Below are positions 1-13,696 of a stretch of DNA of 21,027 bases, piece by piece. The stretch lies in the IMG/VR virus record IMGVR_UViG_2690316152_000009. One strand, written 5' to 3'. The first letter of the stretch is position 1. The number at the start of each line of letters is the position of its first letter. Both the position numbers and the translations under genes were made by a program. Under the pieces are notes generated by a model that was given only the letters and a program-made list of their open reading frames with translations, was not told where the DNA came from and searched no databases. The DNA is from a virus (taxonomy: Duplodnaviria; Heunggongvirae; Uroviricota; Caudoviricetes).

Positions 1-1002
1 TTACCCTCTATTGTCAAAAGGGTTCAATTCAACAGCAGCCTCTAAATGACCTGGAGCAAAATGCGCATAACGCATAGTCATTTTTATATCGCTATGCCCC
101 AGTATTTTTTGCAACACAAGAATATTTCCGCCCCGCATCATAAAATGACTGGCAAACGTGTGACGTAGCACATGAGTTAATTGCCCATCAGGAAGCTCGA
201 TCTTCGCTCTCTTAATTGCAGCGTCAAAAGCCTCATAACATGGTGAAAATAGCGCTCCTCGTTTTTTAGGAAGCATAGCCTGCAATTGAGGTGAAATCGG
301 TACAGTGCGGTTCTTCTTTCCTTTAGTTTTAACAAATGTGATTCGACCGGGCAGTACTTGAGATTGCTTTAATCCTTCTGCTTCACTCCACCGAGCACCC
401 GTCGCAAGCCCAATACGGACAACAACCCCCAAATCTTTATTCCGTGACTCATCACACGCAATCAGAAGGCGTTCAATCTCATCTACATACAGAAACGCCA
501 GTTCCTTTTCTTCCTCACGAAACTTGCGAATACCAGTCAGGGGGTTTTCACCAGACCACTCCCCAAGGCGCTTCAGTTCGGCAAAAACAGCATGTAGATA
601 TGACTGCTCGCGATTAACGGTTGCTTCACTAAGTTTTTTCTTCCCCTTGGGATTCCATTCTCCTGATAGCCTTCTTTCCCGATAAGTAGCAAACATATTT
701 TTGTCAAACTGAGAAGCAAATGGATCTCCCAGCCTGGAACAAATCGCCTCAAGTTTGACTTTGCGCTCTGCACCAGAGGACAAGGTTTTACCGTACATCT
801 CAAACCAACGAGCAATCAACTCAGAAAGACGAGGACCAGAACCATCTTGAAACTCGTCTCCAACTCTACTATTCATTAAACGGCGCTCATAAGAGAGCGC
901 CTCACTTTTTGTCGCAAACTGTTTACGAATGCGTTTTCCCGATGCCCCGTAGGGATAACATTCGCAAAGCCATTTACCTGATGGAATCTTACGAACCGAC
1001 AT
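1..1002 (-). CDS. int: P2-type tyrosine integrase
   Basis: 333-aa ORF; tyrosine-recombinase C-terminal motifs (HVLRHTFASHFMM, LGHSDIKMTMRYAHFAP) and P2 Int-like N-terminus (GKRIRKQF, FVKTKGKKNRTVPIS) recognised from memory of P2 Int; position at prophage end matches the P2 map. Confidence 0.9.
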   Translation of the reverse strand: MSVRKIPSGKWLCECYPYGASGKRIRKQFATKSEALSYERRLMNSRVGDEFQDGSGPRLSELIARWFEMYGKTLSSGAERKVKLEAICSRLGDPFASQFDKNMFATYRERRLSGEWNPKGKKKLSEATVNREQSYLHAVFAELKRLGEWSGENPLTGIRKFREEEKELAFLYVDEIERLLIACDESRNKDLGVVVRIGLATGARWSEAEGLKQSQVLPGRITFVKTKGKKNRTVPISPQLQAMLPKKRGALFSPCYEAFDAAIKRAKIELPDGQLTHVLRHTFASHFMMRGGNILVLQKILGHSDIKMTMRYAHFAPGHLEAAVELNPFDNRG

Positions 1003-1007
1003 TTTAG

Positions 1008-1355
1008 TTACTTATCACATAAATCAAATGCAGCCTTAGTGACATCCCCCAGACTCTTTTTTAACCCTGGGGCGGCATCATTATCTAGCCAAAATGGATT
1101 ATTGTTATCTAACGGTAACGCACCAAATGTTTTACCTTTTATTCGAGCCAAACCTGTAAGTGCATATAACTTATTATCGTCAAAATTCATCACATAAGGA
1201 TTACCATCAAGACACTGTAATTGAACCTCATCAGTATTAAATGGCCATACCCCATTGAAACTCTCACGTTCAATAGTTTTAAAAGGCATTGCGACGGCGG
1301 AAAAAGAAAACATAGATAAAAAAGTAACTAATAGTTGAACCTTTTTTACTTTCAT
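1008..1355 (-). CDS. Secreted (periplasmic) protein of unknown function, cargo between C-like repressor and int
   Basis: 115-aa ORF; N-terminal Sec-type signal peptide (MKVKKVQLLVTFLSMFSFSAVA, AxA cleavage site); two Cys in mature part; GAGG SD before ATG; no Cys lipobox. Confidence 0.6.
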   Translation of the reverse strand: MKVKKVQLLVTFLSMFSFSAVAMPFKTIERESFNGVWPFNTDEVQLQCLDGNPYVMNFDDNKLYALTGLARIKGKTFGALPLDNNNPFWLDNDAAPGLKKSLGDVTKAAFDLCDK

Positions 1356-1384
1356 ATCATTACCTCAATTTAGCTCAAGTAAGA

Positions 1385-2035
1385 TTACAAATTAAAAAAT
1401 GCCCTAGAAATGACACCACCTACCAAAACCCCTACGCAGATAAAGAATATTATTTCTTTTGGATAAAGTCGGATTAATTCTGAAGCACGAAGTCGGACTT
1501 CTGGTAAGGTCGAACTCTCTGTGTGGCTTGATGCCGATTGTTGCTCTAACCACGACAATGCAGACTGTAACTGAGAACGAGTAAGATCGTTTAAACGTCC
1601 TGTACCGAAATTGATATGGCAATACCGCAGAAGTTTTTGTCGAAGTCCACAGTCTTCACTGTTACGTAGTAATAAACTTACAAGAGCCTTACAGGCATCA
1701 TGATCTTTACATCGCTCAAGCATTGCATGCAGAAAACTCTCCGCTGTTTTATATTGATTTACTGTCATATCATCAATACCAGTTACACCAATCTCCGCAT
1801 GTACTTTTTGCCAAATAATAAACGCTTCAGTATTGCTAGCTTCTGCAATAGCAGCAACCAAGCTATTTAGCTCCTTACGCTGAGCCTTAAGCAAAGGGCG
1901 ATCGTCATCATCATTATTCGAAGGGATTGCGATATTGACGGTCTGAGAACCATCATATCGCTCTATCTGAATATTCTTTTCGTGAAAATCACGCCCAGCA
2001 ACGCGATTGTTTGAACCGTTTGAGTTGACGGCCAT
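1385..2035 (-). CDS. C-terminally membrane-anchored (tail-anchored) protein of unknown function
   Basis: 216-aa ORF; GGGAGG SD 6 nt upstream; single hydrophobic segment at extreme C-terminus (EIIFFICVGVLVGGVISRAFFNL); N-terminus carries NNRVAGRDFHE motif shared with C-terminus of upstream repressor. Confidence 0.6.
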   Translation of the reverse strand: MAVNSNGSNNRVAGRDFHEKNIQIERYDGSQTVNIAIPSNNDDDDRPLLKAQRKELNSLVAAIAEASNTEAFIIWQKVHAEIGVTGIDDMTVNQYKTAESFLHAMLERCKDHDACKALVSLLLRNSEDCGLRQKLLRYCHINFGTGRLNDLTRSQLQSALSWLEQQSASSHTESSTLPEVRLRASELIRLYPKEIIFFICVGVLVGGVISRAFFNL

Positions 2036-2050
2036 GTCACCTCCCTACTA

Positions 2051-2455
2051 TCACCTACCCTTAGTTTCGTTATAGTCACGACCAGCGATACGGTTATTAC
2101 CACCAGAAATATTTAACTCACGTCCTGATGGCTGAGTTTCCTTTTCACTGATCGCACCTTTTAAAGCCCCAATCACCGCATTTTTCACATCTAACGAAGC
2201 TGCTCGAAAGCGAGTAATCAACTCCTGCTCATCATCGTTATAAGTTTCAGGTGAGTGAATTCCCAACACAACATACTGAACATCAAGGCCAAAACGAGAC
2301 AGCGCTGCCAAATACGCAGCATCAGGAAAGCTATCTCCTTTCTCATATCTAAGCTGAGTTAGCTTTTTGACTCCACCAATGTCGCTCATGGCAACTTGAC
2401 TAAGTCCCAATCTTTCCCTTTCCTCACGCAACCGCTGACCAATATCATTTTTCAT
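2051..2455 (-). CDS. HTH (XRE-family) transcriptional repressor, putative immunity repressor (P2 C / 186 CI positional analogue)
   Basis: 134-aa ORF; N-terminal HTH (LREERERLGLSQVAMSDIGGVKKLTQLRYEKGDSFP); first gene leftward of divergent switch region, as P2 C. Confidence 0.75.
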   Translation of the reverse strand: MKNDIGQRLREERERLGLSQVAMSDIGGVKKLTQLRYEKGDSFPDAAYLAALSRFGLDVQYVVLGIHSPETYNDDEQELITRFRAASLDVKNAVIGALKGAISEKETQPSGRELNISGGNNRIAGRDYNETKGR

Positions 2456-5027: not shown

Positions 5028-7850
5028 ATGACGGCAGAGTACATCAGGGACTGGCAACAACCGCGCCACGCAGTGGGGCGTGAAGGAACGGGGATCCCCG
5101 CTCCTGAATCCGCGCTTTCCTCCTGGCTGGATGCCTACCGGGCAGAGAACGAGCGCCGCCAGGAAATGGCTGATGCGGCGTTCTCCGCCACGCCGCTGGG
5201 CAACCTGATTAATAAAAGCCTAGACGCACAGGAAAAACAGGACAAAACAATCACACTGGCAGGAGACGCCAGAAAACAGGCACGCGGCGCGGTAGATGAG
5301 GCCATGGCCTCACTGCGCCTGCTGCCGTCCTATCTGCGCGATCCGCTTATTCGCCACCTCTCCTTCCTGCGCAAAAAACAGGAAGCCGATCGTCAGCAAG
5401 GAAAAAACGCCAGGCAGGCAGAACGCTATGCGCGTGGGACCCTGCGCAAAATATTCGAACGTCTGGAGCGCACCGATCACCGCTGGCTGACATCGGGTTA
5501 TCGCTCCCTTGCCGGACGTGAACGCCTGGACGATTTGATTTACCTGCCGCAACTCAACAAACACCAGATACAGACGCTGGCCACCATGACGGCGGCGATG
5601 TTCAGCAGCACCTTCGAAAAACTCTGCGATGGTTTTGGCGCGACTGATGGCGAGCTGACCATGGATGTAACGCTGAAGGCGTATCAGATGCTGGCCCGCA
5701 TGGCGTTACACTTACACGCCATGCCTCCGCATTATGACGCACTGACAACAGACAAAGACCGGAGGCACGAACCGGACACAGAACTGCTGCCGGGCGCAAT
5801 CCTTCGCCTGACCTGTGCGGAATGGTGGAAACGCAAACTGTGGCTGTTACGTTGCGAGTGGAGAGAAGAACAACTCCGCGCCGCCTGTCTAGTTTCCAGA
5901 AAAACATCGCCCTATCTGAGCCAGGACGCGTTAAGCGAGTTTCGCGCACAGCGCGAGAAAACACGCGATTTCCTGAAAAGTTTCATGCTGGAAAATGAAG
6001 ACGGGTTCACGATTGATCTCGAGACGGTGTATTACGCGGGAGTAAGTAACCCGGTTCACCGTAAGGCAGAAATGATGGCCACCATGAAGGGGCTGGAACT
6101 TCTGGCCGAAGCCCGTGGCGACAAAGCGGTGTTTCTGACTGTCACCTGCCCGTCAAAATACCACGCCACAACGGAGAACGGTCATCCGAATCCCAAATGG
6201 AACGGGGCCACAATGCGCGACTCCAGCGATTACCTGGTTAACACGTTTTTTGCGGCGGTCCGCAAAAAACTGAACCGCGACGACCTGCGCTGGTATGGCA
6301 TCCGCACGGTGGAGCCTCATCATGACGGCACCGTGCACTGGCATATGATGGTCTTTGCACATCCGGAAGAAATCGACACCATTGTGTCCCATACCCGCGA
6401 TATTGCCATTCAGGAAGACCGCCACGAGCTGGGCAATGATATTACTCCGCGCTTTAAGGTGGAGTATGTCGACGGCTCAAAAGGCACGCCAACCAGCTAC
6501 ATCGCCACCTACATCGGAAAGAACCTGGACAGCCGCGCCGTGGATGGCATCGACCCGAAAACGGACAAGCCACGCGTGGACCACGAAACCGGAAAATCAA
6601 TGGCCGAGAGCGTGGAACGCGCCATCGGCTGGGCGCGTCTTCACCGCGTCCGCCAGTTCCAGTTCTTTGGTATCCCCTCCCGTCAGGTATGGCGTGAACT
6701 CCGCCGCCTTGCCAGTCAGATGGCCCGCAACCCGGAAGGTCCACAACGTCTGGAAAATGACGCAATGGATGCGGTACTCGCTGCCGCTGATGCCGGGTGT
6801 TTTGCCACCTACATTGAGAAACAGGGTGGCGTACTTGTTCCACGCAAAGACTACCTGATTCGCACCGCCTACGACCTCGCAGAAGAGCTGAACGATTACG
6901 GCGAGCAAAGCGTACAGATTTACGGGATCTGGTCGCCACAAATCGGGGAATCTTCCCGCGTGTGCACGCACCCGGATAACTGGAAGCTGGTAAGACGTAA
7001 ACCGGAAGCGGAAGACAGCGCCCGCGAAAATGGTTTTGACCTTCAGGGCGGCCCTGCCGCCCCTTGGACTCGTGGCAATAACTGTCCCCGTGTACAGGAA
7101 ACGGACAACAACGGGACAGAACAGCCGGAAGAACGGCCAGCACCGTGGCCGCAGCTCCCTGACGGCGTTGAAGTGAACGAATGGATGCGCTCACTGAAAC
7201 GGCACGAACGCCGGGCGCTGATGCGTTCGCTTCGTGACAAACAGGCAAAAAACAGCAGTGATGAAATGCAGAGCTGGACACAGAGCCGCAAACAGCAGCG
7301 GCCTTTGCCTGATAACCACGAATTACTCGCTAAAGAATGGCGGGAGTCTGCTGAATCTCTCGGCCTGCATATCGGTGAACAGCAGATGCAGCACCTGTTA
7401 CGGGGCGGCAGTCTGTACGTTGACGGCAGCATCATTGCACCGCAGGGATTTGAAATTGTACGCAAACCGGATACCCGACCGGACAGCCGGATCACGCAGC
7501 TCTGGCAGCGCCTGAGCCGTAACCACGGCGTAAGCAGCACGGAGATCCGCCATAACCCGGTCGCCAGCTATCTGGAACAGCTGGGGGCATCAGACCCCGA
7601 AGCCGCCGCACGCCTGGCATCCACACTTCAGCAAGACCAGAACACCATGAAAACACCCGTTACCGTGCTTTCTGACATGCTGCGCGCCATCCGCGACGCA
7701 GAGCACGCACAGAGAATCAGTGAAACCACTGAACGCGCCCGCCGCAAAGCAGACCTGCTGCGAGGTGGCCTGACCAGTGGAAACAAAAAACAGACAGAAA
7801 CGGGATTCACAAATCCCGTAAATGAGCAAAAAACGCGCCGCGATATATGA
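5028..7850 (+). CDS. A: Rolling-circle replication initiator endonuclease (P2 gpA family)
   Basis: 940-aa ORF; HUH motif (VHWHMMVFAH) and dual-tyrosine motif (YIATYIGKN) characteristic of phiX174/P2 A-type Rep proteins; start codon may lie downstream (for example ATG 5167); long low-complexity C-terminal extension. Confidence 0.9.
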   Translation: MTAEYIRDWQQPRHAVGREGTGIPAPESALSSWLDAYRAENERRQEMADAAFSATPLGNLINKSLDAQEKQDKTITLAGDARKQARGAVDEAMASLRLLPSYLRDPLIRHLSFLRKKQEADRQQGKNARQAERYARGTLRKIFERLERTDHRWLTSGYRSLAGRERLDDLIYLPQLNKHQIQTLATMTAAMFSSTFEKLCDGFGATDGELTMDVTLKAYQMLARMALHLHAMPPHYDALTTDKDRRHEPDTELLPGAILRLTCAEWWKRKLWLLRCEWREEQLRAACLVSRKTSPYLSQDALSEFRAQREKTRDFLKSFMLENEDGFTIDLETVYYAGVSNPVHRKAEMMATMKGLELLAEARGDKAVFLTVTCPSKYHATTENGHPNPKWNGATMRDSSDYLVNTFFAAVRKKLNRDDLRWYGIRTVEPHHDGTVHWHMMVFAHPEEIDTIVSHTRDIAIQEDRHELGNDITPRFKVEYVDGSKGTPTSYIATYIGKNLDSRAVDGIDPKTDKPRVDHETGKSMAESVERAIGWARLHRVRQFQFFGIPSRQVWRELRRLASQMARNPEGPQRLENDAMDAVLAAADAGCFATYIEKQGGVLVPRKDYLIRTAYDLAEELNDYGEQSVQIYGIWSPQIGESSRVCTHPDNWKLVRRKPEAEDSARENGFDLQGGPAAPWTRGNNCPRVQETDNNGTEQPEERPAPWPQLPDGVEVNEWMRSLKRHERRALMRSLRDKQAKNSSDEMQSWTQSRKQQRPLPDNHELLAKEWRESAESLGLHIGEQQMQHLLRGGSLYVDGSIIAPQGFEIVRKPDTRPDSRITQLWQRLSRNHGVSSTEIRHNPVASYLEQLGASDPEAAARLASTLQQDQNTMKTPVTVLSDMLRAIRDAEHAQRISETTERARRKADLLRGGLTSGNKKQTETGFTNPVNEQKTRRDI

Positions 7851-7926: not shown

Positions 7927-8328
7927 ATGAAAATTTGTATCGATGACGGCTCCACCAACATCAAGCTGGCATGGACTGAGAACGGCGAACGCCGCAACGC
8001 CATCAGCCCGAACAGCTTCAAGTCGGAATGGTCTGCGCCGTTCGGTGGCACGCAGCCCGCGAACTACATGCTTGATGGCGTGCGCTATGGTTTTGATCCG
8101 GTCAGCGATCGCTTTGTCCAGACAACTGACACGCAATACCAGTACAGCGATGTGAATGTCATTGCCATTCATCACGCGCTGGTCAAATCAGGCATCACGC
8201 CACAGGAGGTGGATGTGGTTGTCACCCTGCCACTGAGCGAGTATTTCGACACAAACGCACAGCCGGACATAGCCAACATCAACCGCAAAAAAAGCCCAGG
8301 ATTCCCGGGGCGGTTCAGAGGAGAGTGA
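7927..8328 (+). pseudogene. ParM/StbA-like actin-family partition ATPase, N-terminal fragment only
   Basis: MKICIDDGSTNIKLAW...ISPNSFK...YSDVNVIAIHHALVKSGI resembles the N-terminal about 125 aa of plasmid ParM/StbA (about 320 aa); reading frame runs into a 22-bp IS terminal repeat and stops. Confidence 0.6.
8296..8317. repeat. Solo 22-bp copy of the IS629-like terminal inverted repeat
   Basis: CCAGGATTCCCGGGGCGGTTCA is identical to 20461-20482 (terminus of the partial IS element); no IS body adjacent. Confidence 0.6.
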
Positions 8329-8330
8329 GA

Positions 8331-8822
8331 ATGCAAATTTCACCGGTTACTCTTCGTGTTGCGAAGGCGTTTATATCCAGACATCACCGACACAATAAAC
8401 CCCCGGTGGGGCATAAATTCAGCATTGGTCTGAGAAATGATGCCGGAGAATTGATAGGTGTGGCGACAGCCGGTAGACCTGTTGCACGACATTTGGACGA
8501 TGGATTAACGCTTGAAGTAAATCGCACATGTACCACAGGAGAACGCAACGCTAACAGCGCACTTTATGGTGCTGTCTGGCGGGCAGCAAAGGCTATGGGT
8601 TATCAACGTTGTATTACGTACACCCAGGCAGATGAATCAGGAGCATCTCTCCGCGCAGCTGGTTTTGTTCGTGTGAAAGAGCTTCCTCCAAGAAAAAGCT
8701 GGGCGGAATCAAGCGTCGCCCTGCGGAGTAAACGCGATCCGGTCGGAAACGGTGGTGTTCCTCGTGTGCTCTGGGAAATCAGGAGAATGAGTACCACTGG
8801 CATTCGCATCAAAGGAGAGTGA
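8331..8822 (+). CDS. Hotspot cargo protein, 163 aa, possibly GNAT-fold (acetyltransferase-like)
   Basis: ATG 8331 preceded by GGAGAG SD; weak by-eye match to GNAT core (segment TTGERNANSALYGAVWRAAKAMGYQRCITYT then LRAAGFVRV); stop TGA lies inside the SD of the next gene. Confidence 0.55.
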   Translation: MQISPVTLRVAKAFISRHHRHNKPPVGHKFSIGLRNDAGELIGVATAGRPVARHLDDGLTLEVNRTCTTGERNANSALYGAVWRAAKAMGYQRCITYTQADESGASLRAAGFVRVKELPPRKSWAESSVALRSKRDPVGNGGVPRVLWEIRRMSTTGIRIKGE

Positions 8823-9091
8823 TATGGCAACTTTGACAAAAAAAGAACAAGCATGGTTGAGCGAATTACAGGACGTTCTTGATCGCTGCCCATCACCGAA
8901 AAAAATTGGTTTTTACACCATTGGCGATAAAAGCATTTACCTGTATGACCTGCGCCGCATGGATGAAATCATGGAGGCTCTTGATAATCGTTCGTCAATG
9001 GATTGGTGTGTTGCTGTCCATGATATGAATGCAGGGTTTGATGAAAAGATTTTGTTCCCCTCATCAGTTGAAAGCACAGCAGGATAAGGAC
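8811..9091 (+). repeat. Direct repeat copy 1 (281 bp) carrying the coupling junction and the whole 87-aa gene
   Basis: Identical to 9497-9777 except one synonymous C/T difference (8889 vs 9575). Confidence 0.9.
8824..9087 (+). CDS. Hotspot cargo protein, 87 aa (copy 1)
   Basis: ATG 2 nt after upstream TGA, SD AAAGGAGAG; MATLTKKEQAWLSELQDVLDRCPSPKK...; no recognised family. Confidence 0.6.
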   Translation: MATLTKKEQAWLSELQDVLDRCPSPKKIGFYTIGDKSIYLYDLRRMDEIMEALDNRSSMDWCVAVHDMNAGFDEKILFPSSVESTAG

Positions 9092-9097
9092 TAACAC

Positions 9098-9508
9098 ATG
9101 ACCACTATTACCAAAGAACGTATTGAATTGTTCATTAAAAATCCGCTTGAAAACGGGCTTACTCGTGACGAACAAATGGAACTGGCACGAATTGCACTGG
9201 CATCGCTGGAAGCAGAGGCAGTTATGTTCTGTATATCAGGACAAAATGTAGATTCAGAAGAACATGTATCAACCAGCAAAGCGGTTGTTGATGCCTGGGT
9301 TGAAGAATGGAATCAGGTTGACGGAAGTCCTGGCGAACCACTGTACAAAACTATGCCACTCTACTATCACGCTGCCTTGCCAGCGCCGGTAGTGCCGGAT
9401 GAAATGTATTGGCAGGATGCGCCAGTTGAAGGCAGCAGCAAAGCGGCTGCATACGCTACAGGCTGGAACGCCTGCCGCGCCGCTATGCTTCATGGGAAAG
9501 GAGAGTGA
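9098..9508 (+). CDS. Hotspot cargo protein, 136 aa, acidic
   Basis: ORF between the two repeat copies; its last codons (KGE-stop) lie in repeat copy 2; no recognised family. Confidence 0.6.
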   Translation: MTTITKERIELFIKNPLENGLTRDEQMELARIALASLEAEAVMFCISGQNVDSEEHVSTSKAVVDAWVEEWNQVDGSPGEPLYKTMPLYYHAALPAPVVPDEMYWQDAPVEGSSKAAAYATGWNACRAAMLHGKGE

Positions 9509-9777
9509 TATGGCAACTTTGACAAAAAAAGAACAAGCATGGTTGAGCGAATTACAGGACGTTCTTGATCGCTGTCCATCACCGAAAAAAATTGGTTTTT
9601 ACACCATTGGCGATAAAAGCATTTACCTGTATGACCTGCGCCGCATGGATGAAATCATGGAGGCTCTTGATAATCGTTCGTCAATGGATTGGTGTGTTGC
9701 TGTCCATGATATGAATGCAGGGTTTGATGAAAAGATTTTGTTCCCCTCATCAGTTGAAAGCACAGCAGGATAAGGAC
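9497..9777 (+). repeat. Direct repeat copy 2 (281 bp)
   Basis: See copy 1; offset 686 bp. Confidence 0.9.
9510..9773 (+). CDS. Hotspot cargo protein, 87 aa (copy 2, identical protein)
   Basis: Identical translation to 8824..9087; the ORF-track ORF 9399..9773 is the same frame read from an upstream in-frame start. Confidence 0.6.
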   Translation: MATLTKKEQAWLSELQDVLDRCPSPKKIGFYTIGDKSIYLYDLRRMDEIMEALDNRSSMDWCVAVHDMNAGFDEKILFPSSVESTAG

Positions 9778-9807
9778 CCAGCAAATATACACAACCTATA
9801 AAACACT

Positions 9808-9834
9808 AAAGCGCCTCAGGGGCGCTTTTTGTTT
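9808..9834 (+). terminator. Rho-independent terminator closing the cargo cassette
   Basis: GC-rich hairpin AGCGCC-tcagg-GGCGCT (9810-9826) followed by TTTTTGTTT. Confidence 0.7.
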
Positions 9835-10359
9835 GCACAAAAGTGCACAAATTTGCACAATTTTTTTGAACGACTTTTTACCCTTCCGGCCCGCATGGCG
9901 GCTGGATCCGTCAAGGATCCGTGCGTGCACAAAAAAACGCGCTTTTTCTGCGCGCAGGTGACGGGGGAACAGCCCGCGTTTCAGGGGGTAAATAGCATTC
10001 CCTGAACGATGTCGCAGAGACACAACAGAATGGCCATATTTCTCACGCTGAGCATGAAAAAGGCGTGAGGGCTTTTGATTTGATGGGGTGAAAGGTAAGG
10101 CCGTCAAAATCGCACTGAGGCAGCGAGAACATACAGTCAACGCGGTGGAATTGCGTAAGAGTCTGACCGTCGATGGTGGCGATAAACTGGAAGGCGTCGT
10201 GAAATTATCTGATTGATACAGGAGCTGGAGAGCCGGGGCATAAATTTTTTATGCCCCGGCGAAGCAGCAGACAAGCGAAGCGCGTCAGCGATACGGCACC
10301 TTGCCGACCATACTTCATAAGTGCAAAATACGAGCAAAGAAATCAATGGAGGCTGTCTT
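9835..10359. other. About 0.5-kb non-coding region, candidate cos/packaging and regulatory region
   Basis: No credible ORF; lies where P2 cos sits (between hotspot and Q); TGCACAA x3 at 10-bp phasing (9834-9860), GGATCCGT x2 (9904-9922), perfect 13-bp-stem palindrome (10232-10260); cos sequence itself not identified. Confidence 0.3.
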
Positions 10360-10884
10360 ATGGTCATTAATTACAAGCAGTTAAGAGAAAAACGGGAGCA
10401 GGTAAAGGAGAGCTTTCGCCGCAATGAAGATCTGACCCCGCTTGTACGCCTTGCCCAGGGCATTGTTGATGCTTATGAAATCTCGCTGGAGCTGCCATCA
10501 CAGACCTGGACAGATAGCGACGGTAATCGCCAGCATTACGTTTCATGCGGACTGGAAGCAGCCGAAGGATTTCGCAGAATGCCTTTATCCCAGATCCCTG
10601 CCGCTACCCCCAAAGCATGGGGCAGCAATGATGAGCGAAAACTGACTTTTAGTATTGAAACGGTGGTTGACGACACACCTGGCGAAGTCGCGTTCGTACA
10701 CACTCCTGTTTCGATCGCAATGTATAACGATGAAATACAGGTTCGCGTTAATAATAATATCGTGCCACTTAAAGAAGGTAATTCACCCTACACCACCGTT
10801 TGTGAAGCCATTCAATATTACGTTCTCTCTGAAATTGATAATCTCAAGCCTGACGGCACCCAGAAAATGGTTCAACTCTGGTAA
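10360..10884 (+). CDS. Stand-alone hotspot ORF, 174 aa, unknown function
   Basis: ATG 10360 with GGAGG SD 7 nt upstream; followed by bidirectional terminator; no recognised motif. Confidence 0.55.
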   Translation: MVINYKQLREKREQVKESFRRNEDLTPLVRLAQGIVDAYEISLELPSQTWTDSDGNRQHYVSCGLEAAEGFRRMPLSQIPAATPKAWGSNDERKLTFSIETVVDDTPGEVAFVHTPVSIAMYNDEIQVRVNNNIVPLKEGNSPYTTVCEAIQYYVLSEIDNLKPDGTQKMVQLW

Positions 10885-10885
10885 A

Positions 10886-10917
10886 AAGGACAGCCCCATC
10901 ACGGGGCTGTTTTTTCA
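10886..10917. terminator. Bidirectional intrinsic terminator between the hotspot ORF and portal gene Q
   Basis: Hairpin CAGCCCC-atcac-GGGGCTG (10891-10909) flanked by AAAAA upstream and TTTTTT downstream; overlaps the last codons of Q. Confidence 0.6.
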
Positions 10918-11945
10918 TCAAGAAGAGCATAAGAGTTAAAACGGATCACCTCTTCGCCAAGCCAGTCATTGATGTGCTTCATAGCCTCCATGACGGGCAT
11001 CAGCTCGTTAATTGCGTAAACCCGCGCTGCCTTCTCCACATCGCCAAACGCACTTTTTTCGCCCGGCATCGCCCCCATCAGTTGCGGCGGAACGCGGTGC
11101 GCAGCCAGCACATCATCACGGGATGCCGCCTTAACATTCATGAATTCATCTTTTGCGGTGATCTGCTGGAACGGCAAAATTTGCACCCCCTCTTTGCCCC
11201 CGTTGGGCGCATGAATGAGCACGTTTTTAAACGCACCACCACCACGTGCCCCCTGTAGCGTTTCTTTCAGGGAGTCCATGCTTTCGCGGTTTACCTGCGC
11301 TGCACCGATGTAGATGATGCACCCGGCGTGGGATCCGTTGTCGTAGTACAGTTTTCTGAACATGTCCGCCGAATGAGAAAGGCTGGCCGAGAGTAATGCG
11401 CCAAGATATTCCGGCATGCCGTAGATTTCCTGGTTAATATCCGGATTCATCAGGTGGCACACTTTGCCAGGACGAAACTGAAACGCGTCCTTGCCATCCT
11501 GCACATACCACCATGATTCAAGATCGCTTCCGCGTCGCATGTATTTCGCCAGGGCGTGCCGTAATTTAAGCGGTTCGCCGAGCATATTGCTTCGAAGCTC
11601 AAGGAATGCGTTACCGAACACAAACCAGTCCAGCGCCAGCGCCGAGAAATCCTGCCGGGAAAGCAGCGGGTGCGGGATGTAGCAACCGAGTAATACATTG
11701 CGCTTAAAGTAAAGCGCAGACTGATGCCAGGACGTTTGCCGGGCAGCTCTTGCCAGACCGTACCAGTCCACCGGGGTTTCATACCACCGCCCGTTATCAG
11801 CACAGTACATATTGTCCAGCAGGTCATGCCCGGTCAGGCGATAAGGACCATCAAATGTGAATGCACTGAGCGATGATTCTTTCCTGAGCGCATCAGCGAG
11901 ATCAATGCGTGAACTCATGCGCACTTTTTTATTTTTTCTGCTCAT
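10899..11945 (-). CDS. Q: Portal protein (P2 gpQ family)
   Basis: 348-aa ORF; size, position and P2-like order (Q-P divergent from O); recognised by similarity to P2-type portal from memory. Confidence 0.85.
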   Translation of the reverse strand: MSRKNKKVRMSSRIDLADALRKESSLSAFTFDGPYRLTGHDLLDNMYCADNGRWYETPVDWYGLARAARQTSWHQSALYFKRNVLLGCYIPHPLLSRQDFSALALDWFVFGNAFLELRSNMLGEPLKLRHALAKYMRRGSDLESWWYVQDGKDAFQFRPGKVCHLMNPDINQEIYGMPEYLGALLSASLSHSADMFRKLYYDNGSHAGCIIYIGAAQVNRESMDSLKETLQGARGGGAFKNVLIHAPNGGKEGVQILPFQQITAKDEFMNVKAASRDDVLAAHRVPPQLMGAMPGEKSAFGDVEKAARVYAINELMPVMEAMKHINDWLGEEVIRFNSYALLDEKTAP

Positions 11946-13696
11946 CAGAACTCCATAACTGTGAAACGCTCGTTTTCTCCTTCGCCGCCAATTGGTTCGT
12001 TAATGACAGCAAGCATGGTTGCCCACGCAAGGTCGCCGTGGCTGATCCCCCTCGCGCGGTCCGTTTCGTAAGTGATAAAGCCGCCCGGTGTTTTCACCTT
12101 ACGCACGGCGTTAAAGGCTGCGACCAGCTCGCGTTCGGCGCGATCGTATTCCCACCGCCCGGCACGCATTATTTGCAGCATTTTCAGTACCAGCGACCGT
12201 TTTGATGACAGCGTGAAGGTGTACGGAATAGCAGCAGGGAAAAACCGTTTCACTATCTGATAAACAGCCTCCCCGTTCCCGCCCGTCACATCAATGCCGA
12301 TGTGTTCCACGTTGTAGCGACACGTGAACTCTTCAATGACTCTGGCCTGTTCTTCAAACTCCAGCCCCTGAACGCGTCGCGTCTCCACCGTTCGAAAACG
12401 GCCACCAGGAACAGACGGAGGAACCACCACGGACACAGCGCCGCTGTCGCCGTTGCCACTGCTGCCGTTTGCGTCATACCCAATCCATACCGGACGATTC
12501 CCCATCGGGCGGGGAGCAAAAGGTTTCCAGTCTTTCCAGTCGTCGTATCCGTCAACACCACAGCCAATCAGGATATTCAGGTTAAATGCCGATTCCCCTT
12601 CGCGGACAAACTCACACATATAGAGATTGAGGAACTCGTCTTCGGTGTTTTCATCACGAATTTCATCAATATCGGTGTGTTTCCAGCCGTGATTAACCAC
12701 ATCTTCCAGCGTGACAATTTGCCGCCACGTCCGGTCAGGGCAGATAAGCCCGTTATGCAGCGTTTTCCAGTCCACAGAAAAACGCTGGCGTTTATGCGTG
12801 GCCTTTTTCTCGTTCCAGCGGTCGCCGTTCCAGTAGGCGTATGCCTCGTGCGTTTCGGTGGATGGCGTGGAGAAGTAGGTGCGCCGCAGTCCGCTGAGGG
12901 TTGCCATAGCGCCAGCCACCTTGCGCAGTTCAGCAAAGCGACTGACCCAGAAAAATTCATCAAAATAAAAATTGCCCGTATAGGACTGCGCCGACGCAGC
13001 AGAAGTGCCGAGAAAATGCAGCTCTGCGCCGTTGGAGAGGATGATTTTATCGCCCCCTTTCAGCTCCACATCAACTTCAGCCGCGGCCTTCTGAATAATG
13101 CTTTTAAACTGGAACGCCTGACGACGCGACGCAGACAAAAAAATCTGGTTACGCTGGTAAGGTTGCGCCACATCGTCACGCAGCGCCATCAGCAGTGCTT
13201 CCTGTGCAAAATACCAGGTCGCGCCAATCTGTCGGGATTTCAGGATCATCCTGTTACGTATCCCGGCTTCCCTGCAAAGGGTCAGGGAGTCAAACCAGCC
13301 CCGCTGATGCCACTCCAGCCTGCTGATGATTTTTTCCCGCAGTGCGACAATCTGTTCCGGCGTGAAATGATTTTTGAGTTTTTTCGCCCGGCCTTTCTTT
13401 CCTGTGGCCGTCGCATCCGGCTGGCCATCATGCATTTTTTTAAGCTGCCGGGTCAGCAGGTCTATTTCCTTAAAGTCACCGCCTGTTTTATTCTGTTTTT
13501 CAGTAAGCTGGATGAGGCGCGCATCGATGGACTGCGTGACACGCTGCACGGGTGGCGTTTCATCCCACTGGTCGCGTTTTTTCCACGCATAAATCGTGTT
13601 CGGGTTTATTCCCATCAGACGTGATATTTCTGCGGGCGGATAACCCTGCCAGTAAAGTTGCCGCGCACGCTGGCGCACAAAAGCGTCCTGAATCAT
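11945..13696 (-). CDS. P: Terminase large (ATPase) subunit (P2 gpP family)
   Basis: 583-aa ORF; ILKSRQIGATWYF ATPase motif typical of P2-type terminases; N-terminal HTH-like region. Confidence 0.9.
   Translation of the reverse strand: MIQDAFVRQRARQLYWQGYPPAEISRLMGINPNTIYAWKKRDQWDETPPVQRVTQSIDARLIQLTEKQNKTGGDFKEIDLLTRQLKKMHDGQPDATATGKKGRAKKLKNHFTPEQIVALREKIISRLEWHQRGWFDSLTLCREAGIRNRMILKSRQIGATWYFAQEALLMALRDDVAQPYQRNQIFLSASRRQAFQFKSIIQKAAAEVDVELKGGDKIILSNGAELHFLGTSAASAQSYTGNFYFDEFFWVSRFAELRKVAGAMATLSGLRRTYFSTPSTETHEAYAYWNGDRWNEKKATHKRQRFSVDWKTLHNGLICPDRTWRQIVTLEDVVNHGWKHTDIDEIRDENTEDEFLNLYMCEFVREGESAFNLNILIGCGVDGYDDWKDWKPFAPRPMGNRPVWIGYDANGSSGNGDSGAVSVVVPPSVPGGRFRTVETRRVQGLEFEEQARVIEEFTCRYNVEHIGIDVTGGNGEAVYQIVKRFFPAAIPYTFTLSSKRSLVLKMLQIMRAGRWEYDRAERELVAAFNAVRKVKTPGGFITYETDRARGISHGDLAWATMLAVINEPIGGEGENERFTVMEF

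What the first reader, a model, noticed from the sequence alone, without database searches (positions are those of the whole stretch)
10321..10917. Stand-alone 174-aa ORF between the putative cos region and portal gene Q
P2 has no gene between cos and Q. This ORF has its own good SD, lies downstream of about 0.5 kb of non-coding DNA and ends at a bidirectional terminator shared with Q. A single-gene cargo at a defence hotspot could be a one-protein defence or lysogenic-conversion factor. The sequence has no motif I recognise.
Basis: partly seen in the sequence, partly recalled or inferred. Interest (0 to 1): 0.5.

Follow-up and report, generated by a model that had tools for sequence, protein, structure and literature searches.

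The report
Uncharacterised prophage moron beside portal gene
A real, selectively maintained 174-residue gene of unknown function has been inserted, with its own start signals and terminator, between the packaging site and the portal gene of a P88/P2-like E. coli prophage; it belongs to a fast-evolving family that hops between "extra gene" slots of unrelated temperate phages, which makes it a good but untested candidate for a phage-versus-phage conflict protein.

Summary
Window 10360-10884 (+) encodes a 174-aa protein with a GGAGG ribosome-binding site and a strong bidirectional terminator shared with portal gene Q. The window is a P88-like (Xuanwuvirus, P2 family) E. coli prophage. Phages P88 and P2 have nothing between cos and Q. 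Here a ~630-bp cassette (10289-10916) is inserted, and it even supplies the last six portal codons. About 31% of P88-like prophages in complete E. coli genomes carry it (397 of 5426 genomes). The gene is under purifying selection (dN/dS 0.07-0.2).

The protein matches PHROG 5091 (unknown function) and no Pfam, NCBIfam or PADLOC family. A confident AlphaFold model (pLDDT 85) has no convincing structural neighbour. Distant homologues (84 clusters at 50% identity) were found only in temperate phages in every context sampled. They sit in classical moron slots, usually followed by a terminator, and evolve much faster than neighbouring tail genes.

My best reading is a lysogen-expressed, non-enzymatic, protein-binding conflict factor, most likely anti-phage. 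This function is inferred, not shown. It is not a member of the Tai family. It already appears, as an unnamed "hypothetical", in the Rousset 2022 hotspot tables.

The parts
10289..10916 (.). Inserted cassette (moron) relative to phage P88. The left boundary follows the conserved ...GCGCGTCAG. The right boundary lies inside the last codons of the portal gene.
   Evidence: Alignment of the window with P88. P88 has about 20 bp here. Blastn shows that homology to P88-like phages without the gene stops at about window 10292.
10301..10329 (+). Candidate sigma-70 promoter, TTGCCG-17 nt-CAAAAT (8 of 12 matches to consensus), lying inside the insert.
   Evidence: Read from the sequence. It falls below the 9/12 threshold of the scan. 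The same hexamers and 17-nt spacing (TTGTCT-17-CAAAAT) are kept upstream of the 60%-identical Salmonella homologue, although the surrounding DNA does not align. Inferred, not mapped.
10348..10352 (+). Shine-Dalgarno GGAGG, 7 nt before the ATG.
   Evidence: Sequence. GGAG is conserved in the Salmonella homologue.
10360..10884 (+). CDS of 174 aa (RefSeq WP_000236496; PHROG 5091). Soluble, pI 4.9. The predicted alpha+beta fold has an N-terminal helical hairpin, an antiparallel sheet and a C-terminal helix.
10890..10910 (.). Bidirectional intrinsic terminator serving the ORF (+) and the P-Q late operon (-).
10899..11945 (-). Portal gene Q (context). Its last six codons (DEKTAP*) come from the cassette; P88 has DTQPTS*.
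10232..10260 (.). Conserved perfect 13-bp hairpin without a U tract, just left of the insertion point. It is present in all P88-like phages examined.
9830..10288 (.). Conserved non-coding cos-proximal region of P88-like phages. The exact cohesive ends were not determined.

Best explanation
Shown:
- The region is a self-contained promoter-gene-terminator cassette, a moron in the sense of Hendrix and colleagues.
- It was inserted between the cos region and portal gene Q of a P88-like (P2-family) prophage.
- It encodes a genuine, purifying-selected, soluble 174-aa protein of an unannotated family.

Inferred:
- The cassette is transcribed from its own weak sigma-70 promoter. It runs convergent to the Ogr-dependent P-Q late operon and is insulated from it by the shared terminator, so the protein is made constitutively in the lysogen.
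- The protein has no enzymatic or membrane features and is fast-evolving, so I expect it to act by stoichiometric binding to another protein.
- The most likely target is a protein of a superinfecting phage. This would protect the lysogen population in the way the Tai, Tab and TerI morons do, which block tail assembly or packaging. Like those genes, this family sits next to packaging and tail modules.
- The target and the step blocked are unknown.
For: Cassette and polymorphism:
- P88 and P2 have no gene at this position.
- The conserved left flank occurs at 1288 places in 1142 complete E. coli genomes, and the ORF at 401 places in 397 genomes.
- One other cargo, a 236-aa hypothetical, occupies the same site in strain SCU-115.

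Real gene:
- dN/dS is 0.07-0.22.
- PHROG 5091 E-value is 1.4e-67.
- A profile search finds 84 clusters at 50% identity.

Own signals:
- GGAGG ribosome-binding site and terminator.
- The -35/-10 hexamers and their spacing are conserved at 60% protein identity in otherwise unalignable DNA.
- The four distant homologue loci scanned are each followed by an intrinsic terminator (weak in Trabulsiella), and two of the four have a promoter-like site just upstream.

Mobility between moron slots of unrelated temperate phages:
- Q-holin interval (L013, CharmingMan).
- Rz1-terminase interval (L003).
- Tail chaperone-tape measure interval in E217-like myophages.
- Just after gpA, beside HicAB and Fic (Trabulsiella).
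- Next to Ant/Bro morons.

Temperate phages only: among 50,697 phage genomes, only four P88-like phages and one lambdoid phage carry it.

Arms-race signature: in E217-like prophages the homologue is 31-45% identical where the sheath is 70-95% and the tape measure 49-81% identical.

Hotspot: the gpA-gpQ interval is an experimentally validated defence hotspot (PMC9122126).

Likely binder rather than enzyme:
- No catalytic or nucleotide-binding family matches.
Against: - There is no expression or phenotype data of any kind.
- No homology to any of the 5027 PADLOC models.
- No homology to the Tai family.
- The candidate promoter is weak (8 of 12) and unmapped.
- In lambdoid and E217-like phages the homologues lie in the sense orientation inside late operons, so they may be made mainly during lytic growth. 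That would fit counter-defence or host takeover equally well.
- Rousset et al. catalogued this protein in their hotspot tables but did not report it among validated systems.
Confidence: 0.35

Rival explanations
1. Counter-defence protein. The product binds and inhibits a host or competitor immune system (Acr/Ocr-like logic), which helps the phage establish itself or be induced.
For: - Small, acidic (pI 4.9), non-enzymatic and fast-evolving.
- Homologues lie in the sense orientation within late operons, or just after the Q antiterminator, so they could be made during lytic growth.
Against: - Absent from the virulent phages among 50,697 genomes.
- No linked aca-type regulator.
- In the P2-like phages it is convergent to the late operon and has its own terminator and promoter-like signals, a layout typical of lysogen-expressed morons.
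- The fold similarities are below a convincing level.
Confidence: 0.2
2. Host-directed accessory factor. This would be lysogenic conversion in the broad sense: a cytoplasmic regulator or inhibitor of a host protein that changes the physiology or fitness of the lysogen and is unrelated to other phages.
For: - Moron architecture.
- Prevalence in successful lineages such as ST131, O145 and O111.
- Neighbouring slots in other phages carry host-directed morons, for example TciA/TciB in CharmingMan.
Against: - Divergence much faster than the flanking genes is more typical of antagonistic co-evolution than of binding to a conserved host target.
- No signal peptide, lipobox or transmembrane segment was seen on reading the sequence, so a surface-conversion role is unlikely.
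Confidence: 0.15
3. Accessory component of the phage's own packaging or tail morphogenesis, for example a cos- or portal-associated factor, or a partner of the tape measure protein.
For: It is adjacent to cos, portal and terminase here, and it keeps a fixed position between the tail chaperone and the tape measure gene in several E217-like prophages.
Against: - About 69% of P88-like prophages, including plaque-forming P88, lack it.
- The position differs completely between phage types.
- No PHROG or Pfam structural annotation.
- In E217-like phages it is flanked by terminators and diverges far faster than the tail genes.
Confidence: 0.05

Closest known systems
Tai (tail assembly inhibition) morons, e.g. 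phi80 TaiEcA/orf63 (He et al. 2024, PMC11364771)
   Same: - A single cytoplasmic protein encoded by a moron of temperate phages.
- Mostly located next to the packaging module or in cos-proximal hotspots of P4 and P2 elements.
- A highly divergent family, expressed in the lysogen.
- Orientation opposed to the late operon in phi80, as it is here relative to P-Q.
   Different: No sequence relationship: hhalign probability is 0.1-0.3% against TaiEcA and against a 12-sequence Tai profile. Tai is about 204 aa, and its family alignment shows a conserved R-N-x-x-A-H-N motif that this family lacks. No cognate anti-Tai-like partner gene is evident here. Function is untested.
Tab (JBD26 gp31) and TerI (Listeria phi10403S), prophage proteins that block tail assembly or DNA packaging of invaders (PMC10884400; bioRxiv 10.1101/2025.02.27.640495)
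   Same: Small, domain-less moron proteins embedded in or beside terminase genes. They have their own promoter and give population-level defence by binding a virion-assembly protein.
   Different: Different hosts and phage types. Tab is 83 aa. Sequence similarity was not tested here. Those systems include self-immunity proteins, and none is identified here.
P2 old and tin, and other cargo of the gpA-gpQ hotspot (Rousset et al. 2022, PMC9122126)
   Same: Same hotspot of the same phage family, with variable presence. This very protein (WP_000236495/6) is listed as 'hypothetical' in their locus tables.
   Different: Old (a nuclease/ATPase) and Tin are unrelated proteins located on the gpA side of cos. 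This gene sits on the Q side of cos in P88-like phages, as a separate one-gene insertion. It has not been validated.
Classical morons (HK97 gp15, lambda bor/lom; definition of Juhala, Hendrix et al. 2000, from my own knowledge)
   Same: A promoter-gene-terminator unit inserted between genes that are adjacent in related phages. Non-essential.
   Different: Those examples are membrane or surface proteins. This one is a soluble cytoplasmic protein with no recognisable domain.

Membership tests
Moron (extra transcription unit in a temperate phage) | The gene is present between two genes or sites that are directly adjacent in closely related phages. | tested here: met
   P88 and about 69% of P88-like prophages have the cos region abutting the portal gene. 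Four phage records and 397 genomes carry the insert.
Moron (extra transcription unit in a temperate phage) | Own terminator. | tested here: met
   Hairpin 10890-10910, -20.6 kcal/mol, followed by U6. Distant homologues are also followed by terminators.
Moron (extra transcription unit in a temperate phage) | Own promoter, active in the lysogen. | tested here: inconclusive
   TTGCCG-17-CAAAAT lies inside the insert and is conserved in the divergent Salmonella locus. It is weak (8 of 12), falls below the scan threshold, and there is no transcript data.
P2 gpA-gpQ hotspot cargo (Rousset 2022) | Located between the replication gene A and the portal gene Q of a P2-like prophage. | tested here: met
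   gpA is at 5028-7850 and Q at 10899-11945. WP_000236496 is listed in their Table S5A.
Anti-phage defence system (any known) | Homology to a described defence protein. | tested here: not met
   PADLOC gives 0 families for the window protein and for three of four relatives. One relative has a 19.6-bit partial PglZ hit that was not reproduced in the other four family members scanned.
Anti-phage defence system (any known) | Reduces infection by some phage when expressed. | not testable with these tools
   Needs plaque or burst assays.
Tai family | Sequence or profile homology to TaiEcA (phi80 orf63). | tested here: not met
   hhalign probability 0.09% against the single sequence and 0.33% profile against profile.
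Tai family | Blocks tail assembly of the invading phage; escape mutations map to tail proteins. | not testable with these tools
   Requires experiments.
Tab (JBD26) | Homology to the 83-residue Tab protein. | not tested
The sizes differ (83 against 174 aa; PMC10884400).
Phage structural or packaging protein | Homology to a portal, terminase, capsid, tail or assembly family. | tested here: not met

The most novel reading that the evidence does not exclude
The gene is the founding member of a new family of single-protein, non-enzymatic prophage immunity factors (or, conversely, immunity inhibitors). The family would have a previously undescribed alpha+beta fold. It would travel as a promoter-gene-terminator cassette between the moron slots of P2-like, lambdoid and E217-like temperate phages of Enterobacterales. 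It would diversify rapidly because it recognises a variable protein of competing phages.
Probability: 0.4. Interest if true: 0.6.

Novelty: new member of a known kind. Interest (0 to 1): 0.45.

Why it matters
The protein is carried by about 7% of complete E. coli genomes, including the pandemic ST131 lineage and O145 and O111 STEC strains, yet it is annotated only as 'hypothetical'. It sits in a hotspot where more than a third of cloned cargo systems turned out to be anti-phage. If it is a defence or counter-defence factor, it would add a new domain-less family. It would matter for choosing phage-therapy hosts and for understanding P2/P4 ecology. It would also show that the Q side of cos is a second insertion point within the P2 hotspot. 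If it has no phenotype, it remains one more catalogued moron of unknown function.

Tried and rejected
1. Known families. Pfam, NCBIfam and PADLOC found nothing; PHROGs gave only an unknown-function family.
2. Solved structures by sequence profile. Nothing below E = 0.05.
4. Tai hypothesis. It was raised by the similar genomic positions and rejected as family membership by hhalign. Tab, TerI and GiPD474 were rejected on size, domain content or host.
5. The weak PglZ hit of one relative (19.6 bits). It was not seen for the other four family members scanned or in the structure searches, so I treat it as chance.
6. Domain fusions. The longer hits are mis-called starts or an unrelated repeat protein.
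7. Ogr/delta-type late promoter (TGT-N12-ACA). Reading 10200-10359 shows none.
8. P2 cos 19-mer. It is not present at up to 3 mismatches, so the exact cohesive ends remain unlocated.
9. Literature searches by accession and PHROG id found no paper.
10. The genome-contig scan with the close family found only two species representatives. Two search for related loci attempts with broad alignments failed for lack of conserved stretches.

Full report
**What is in the sequence**

The window is a P2-family prophage:
- integrase at 1-1002 (-);
- HTH repressor at 2051-2455 (-);
- replication gene A at 5028-7850;
- a variable cargo block;
- a conserved non-coding region;
- the finding;
- portal Q (10899-11945, -) and terminase P (11945-13696, -);
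- head and tail genes.

By DNA similarity it is a P88-like phage (Xuanwuvirus, Peduoviridae). Region 9780-10940 is 99.7% identical to Escherichia phages PhiR44_2, vB_EcoM-569R5, vB_EcoM-705R2 and an ST131 prophage.

The ORF's maximal frame starts at GTG 10321.

The stop codon at 10882-10884 is followed by a hairpin at 10890-10910. It folds at -20.6 kcal/mol and is followed by U6 on the + strand. On the - strand it folds at -18 kcal/mol and is followed by U5. Neither fold is matched by any of 200 shuffles. The hairpin overlaps the 3' end of Q.

**It is an insertion**

In phage P88 the conserved cos-proximal DNA ends in ...GCGCGTCAG, which already contains the portal stop codon. In the window the same sequence ends at 10288 and about 630 bp follow before portal homology resumes. 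The portal therefore ends ...LLDEKTAP here and ...LLDTQPTS in P88: the cassette replaced the last six codons and brought a new terminator. P2 itself has only cosL and the tQ terminator before Q.

In complete E. coli genomes the conserved left flank occurs at 1288 places in 1142 genomes. The cassette occurs at 401 places in 397 of 5426 genomes, always beside "phage portal protein" and never on plasmids. So about 31% of P88-like prophages carry it and the rest show the empty site.

One strain (SCU-115) has a different 236-aa hypothetical gene in the same interval. That gene also has no Pfam or PADLOC match.

**It is a real gene**

Alleles that differ by about 5% in DNA give dN/dS of 0.07-0.22. 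The protein matches PHROG 5091 over its full length (E = 1.4e-67, function unknown). Close relatives (46-95% identity) occur in E. coli, Salmonella, Yersinia and Trabulsiella. A profile search of 1.84 billion cluster representatives finds 84 clusters of 155-185 aa proteins with these shared motifs:
- Y-x2-S-L-x-L-P-x3-W-x-D-x2-G-x4-Y-V
- F-x-I-x-T-V-x-D-D-x-P-x-G-G

**What the protein looks like**

It matches no Pfam, NCBIfam or PADLOC family and no solved structure by sequence profile. Its pI is 4.9, and on reading the sequence I saw no hydrophobic segment or signal peptide.

With the 59-sequence alignment, AlphaFold2 gives a confident model (pLDDT 85, pTM 0.73). It has two N-terminal helices, an antiparallel sheet of about eight strands with one disordered loop (residues 74-92), and a C-terminal helix.

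**Context of relatives**

Every sampled context is a temperate phage, and the position changes with the phage type:

| Phage type or source | Position of the homologue |
|---|---|
| Salmonella P2-like phage | between cos and Q |
| Trabulsiella P2-like phage | directly after gpA, beside HicAB and Fic |
| Lambdoid phages (including phage CharmingMan) | between antiterminator Q and the lysis genes |
| Edwardsiella lambdoid prophage | between Rz1 and terminase |
| Xenorhabdus and Providencia prophages plus two metagenomic contigs, all E217-like myophages | between the tail chaperone and the tape measure gene |
| Another E217-like element | next to Ant/Bro genes |

The distant copies are followed by intrinsic terminators, and several have promoter-like sites just upstream.

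For the close family, the candidate promoter TTGCCG-17-CAAAAT (10301-10329) lies inside the insert. It is conserved, spacing included, in the 60%-identical Salmonella locus, whose flanks do not otherwise align.

Among 50,697 phage genomes, only the four P88-like phages and CharmingMan encode a member. No virulent phage does.

In the E217-like prophages the homologue is 31-45% identical between phages whose sheath, tube, chaperone and tape measure proteins are 49-95% identical. For example, L018 against L019 gives sheath 95%, chaperone 91%, tape measure 81% and this gene 45%. In the P2-like pair the contrast is milder: 60% against 74-78% for portal and terminase.

**Interpretation**

The following are shown:
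- a mobile, non-essential, selectively maintained single-gene cassette;
- restriction to temperate phages;
- location in the experimentally validated gpA-gpQ hotspot (PMC9122126);
- evolution faster than its neighbours.

The following are inferred:
- expression in the lysogen from its own promoter;
- action by protein binding;
- a role in conflict with other phages.

I rank anti-phage defence by stoichiometric binding of an invader's protein first (0.35). The reasons are its restriction to temperate phages, its moron architecture, its orientation against the late operon in P2-like phages, and its recurrent placement beside packaging and tail modules. That placement resembles Tai, Tab and TerI (PMC11364771, PMC10884400, bioRxiv 10.1101/2025.02.27.640495).

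It is not a member of the Tai family: profile-profile probability is 0.3%.

The ranked rivals are counter-defence (0.2), a host-directed factor (0.15) and a role in the phage's own morphogenesis (0.05). The remaining probability is unassigned.

**Prior knowledge**

The protein (WP_000236496, and its near-identical variant WP_000236495) is listed at least 168 times as "hypothetical" in the hotspot locus table of Rousset et al. 2022. It usually appears with the ParM/StbA partition cassette. The table also contains the exact gene order seen in this window. It is not mentioned in that paper's text and is not among the validated systems. Full-text searches for the accession, the UniProt id and the PHROG id found nothing.

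The element is therefore catalogued but uncharacterised. I rate it a new member of a known kind (hotspot moron), of moderate interest.

Noticed in passing
window 8811-9091 and 9497-9777: A perfect 281-nt direct repeat gives two identical copies of an 87-aa PHROG 1714 gene (8824-9087 and 9510-9773). They flank a 136-aa ORF (9098-9508, PHROG 5117). This looks like a recent cassette gain by recombination. The same gene order is listed for another assembly in Rousset 2022 Table S5A.
   Followed up: partly
window 7927-8822: ParM is truncated to 133 aa (N-terminal domain only) and abuts a 165-aa Mom-like DNA-modification gene (8325-8822). P88 and PhiR44_2 have full-length ParM, ParR and a ClpX-type zinc-finger gene here, so this prophage has lost its partition module.
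   Followed up: partly
window 10232-10260: A perfect 13-bp inverted repeat (GCCGGGGCATAAA/TTTATGCCCCGGC, -27 kcal/mol) with no U tract. It is conserved in all P88-like phages examined, about 30 bp from the portal stop in phages without the insert. It could be a terminator for Q or a packaging-related site.
   Followed up: partly
L022:2592-3302 (E. coli SCU-115, NZ_CP054368.1): A different single gene (236 aa, WP_223942718.1, no Pfam or PADLOC hit) lies between the cos region and the portal gene. The Q side of cos is therefore itself a small variable site.
   Followed up: partly
window 1008-2035 (-): Two cargo genes lie between the integrase and the repressor: a DUF2511 protein (115 aa) and a 216-aa PHROG 5825 protein with weak similarity to a moron membrane-protein family. 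This is a second accessory slot of the prophage.
   Followed up: no
L004, L006, L017-L019 (E217-like prophages of Xenorhabdus, Providencia and metagenomes): Homologues keep a fixed slot between the tail chaperone and the tape measure gene and are bracketed by terminators. They diverge far faster (31-45% identity) than the surrounding tail genes (49-95%).
   Followed up: yes
window 10615-10617 (codon 86 of the ORF): The window allele has Trp86 where most sampled alleles have Arg (AWGS against ARGS). Residue 86 lies in the predicted disordered loop (residues 74-92). The Trp allele is nevertheless common: this exact sequence is on 635 contigs.
   Followed up: no
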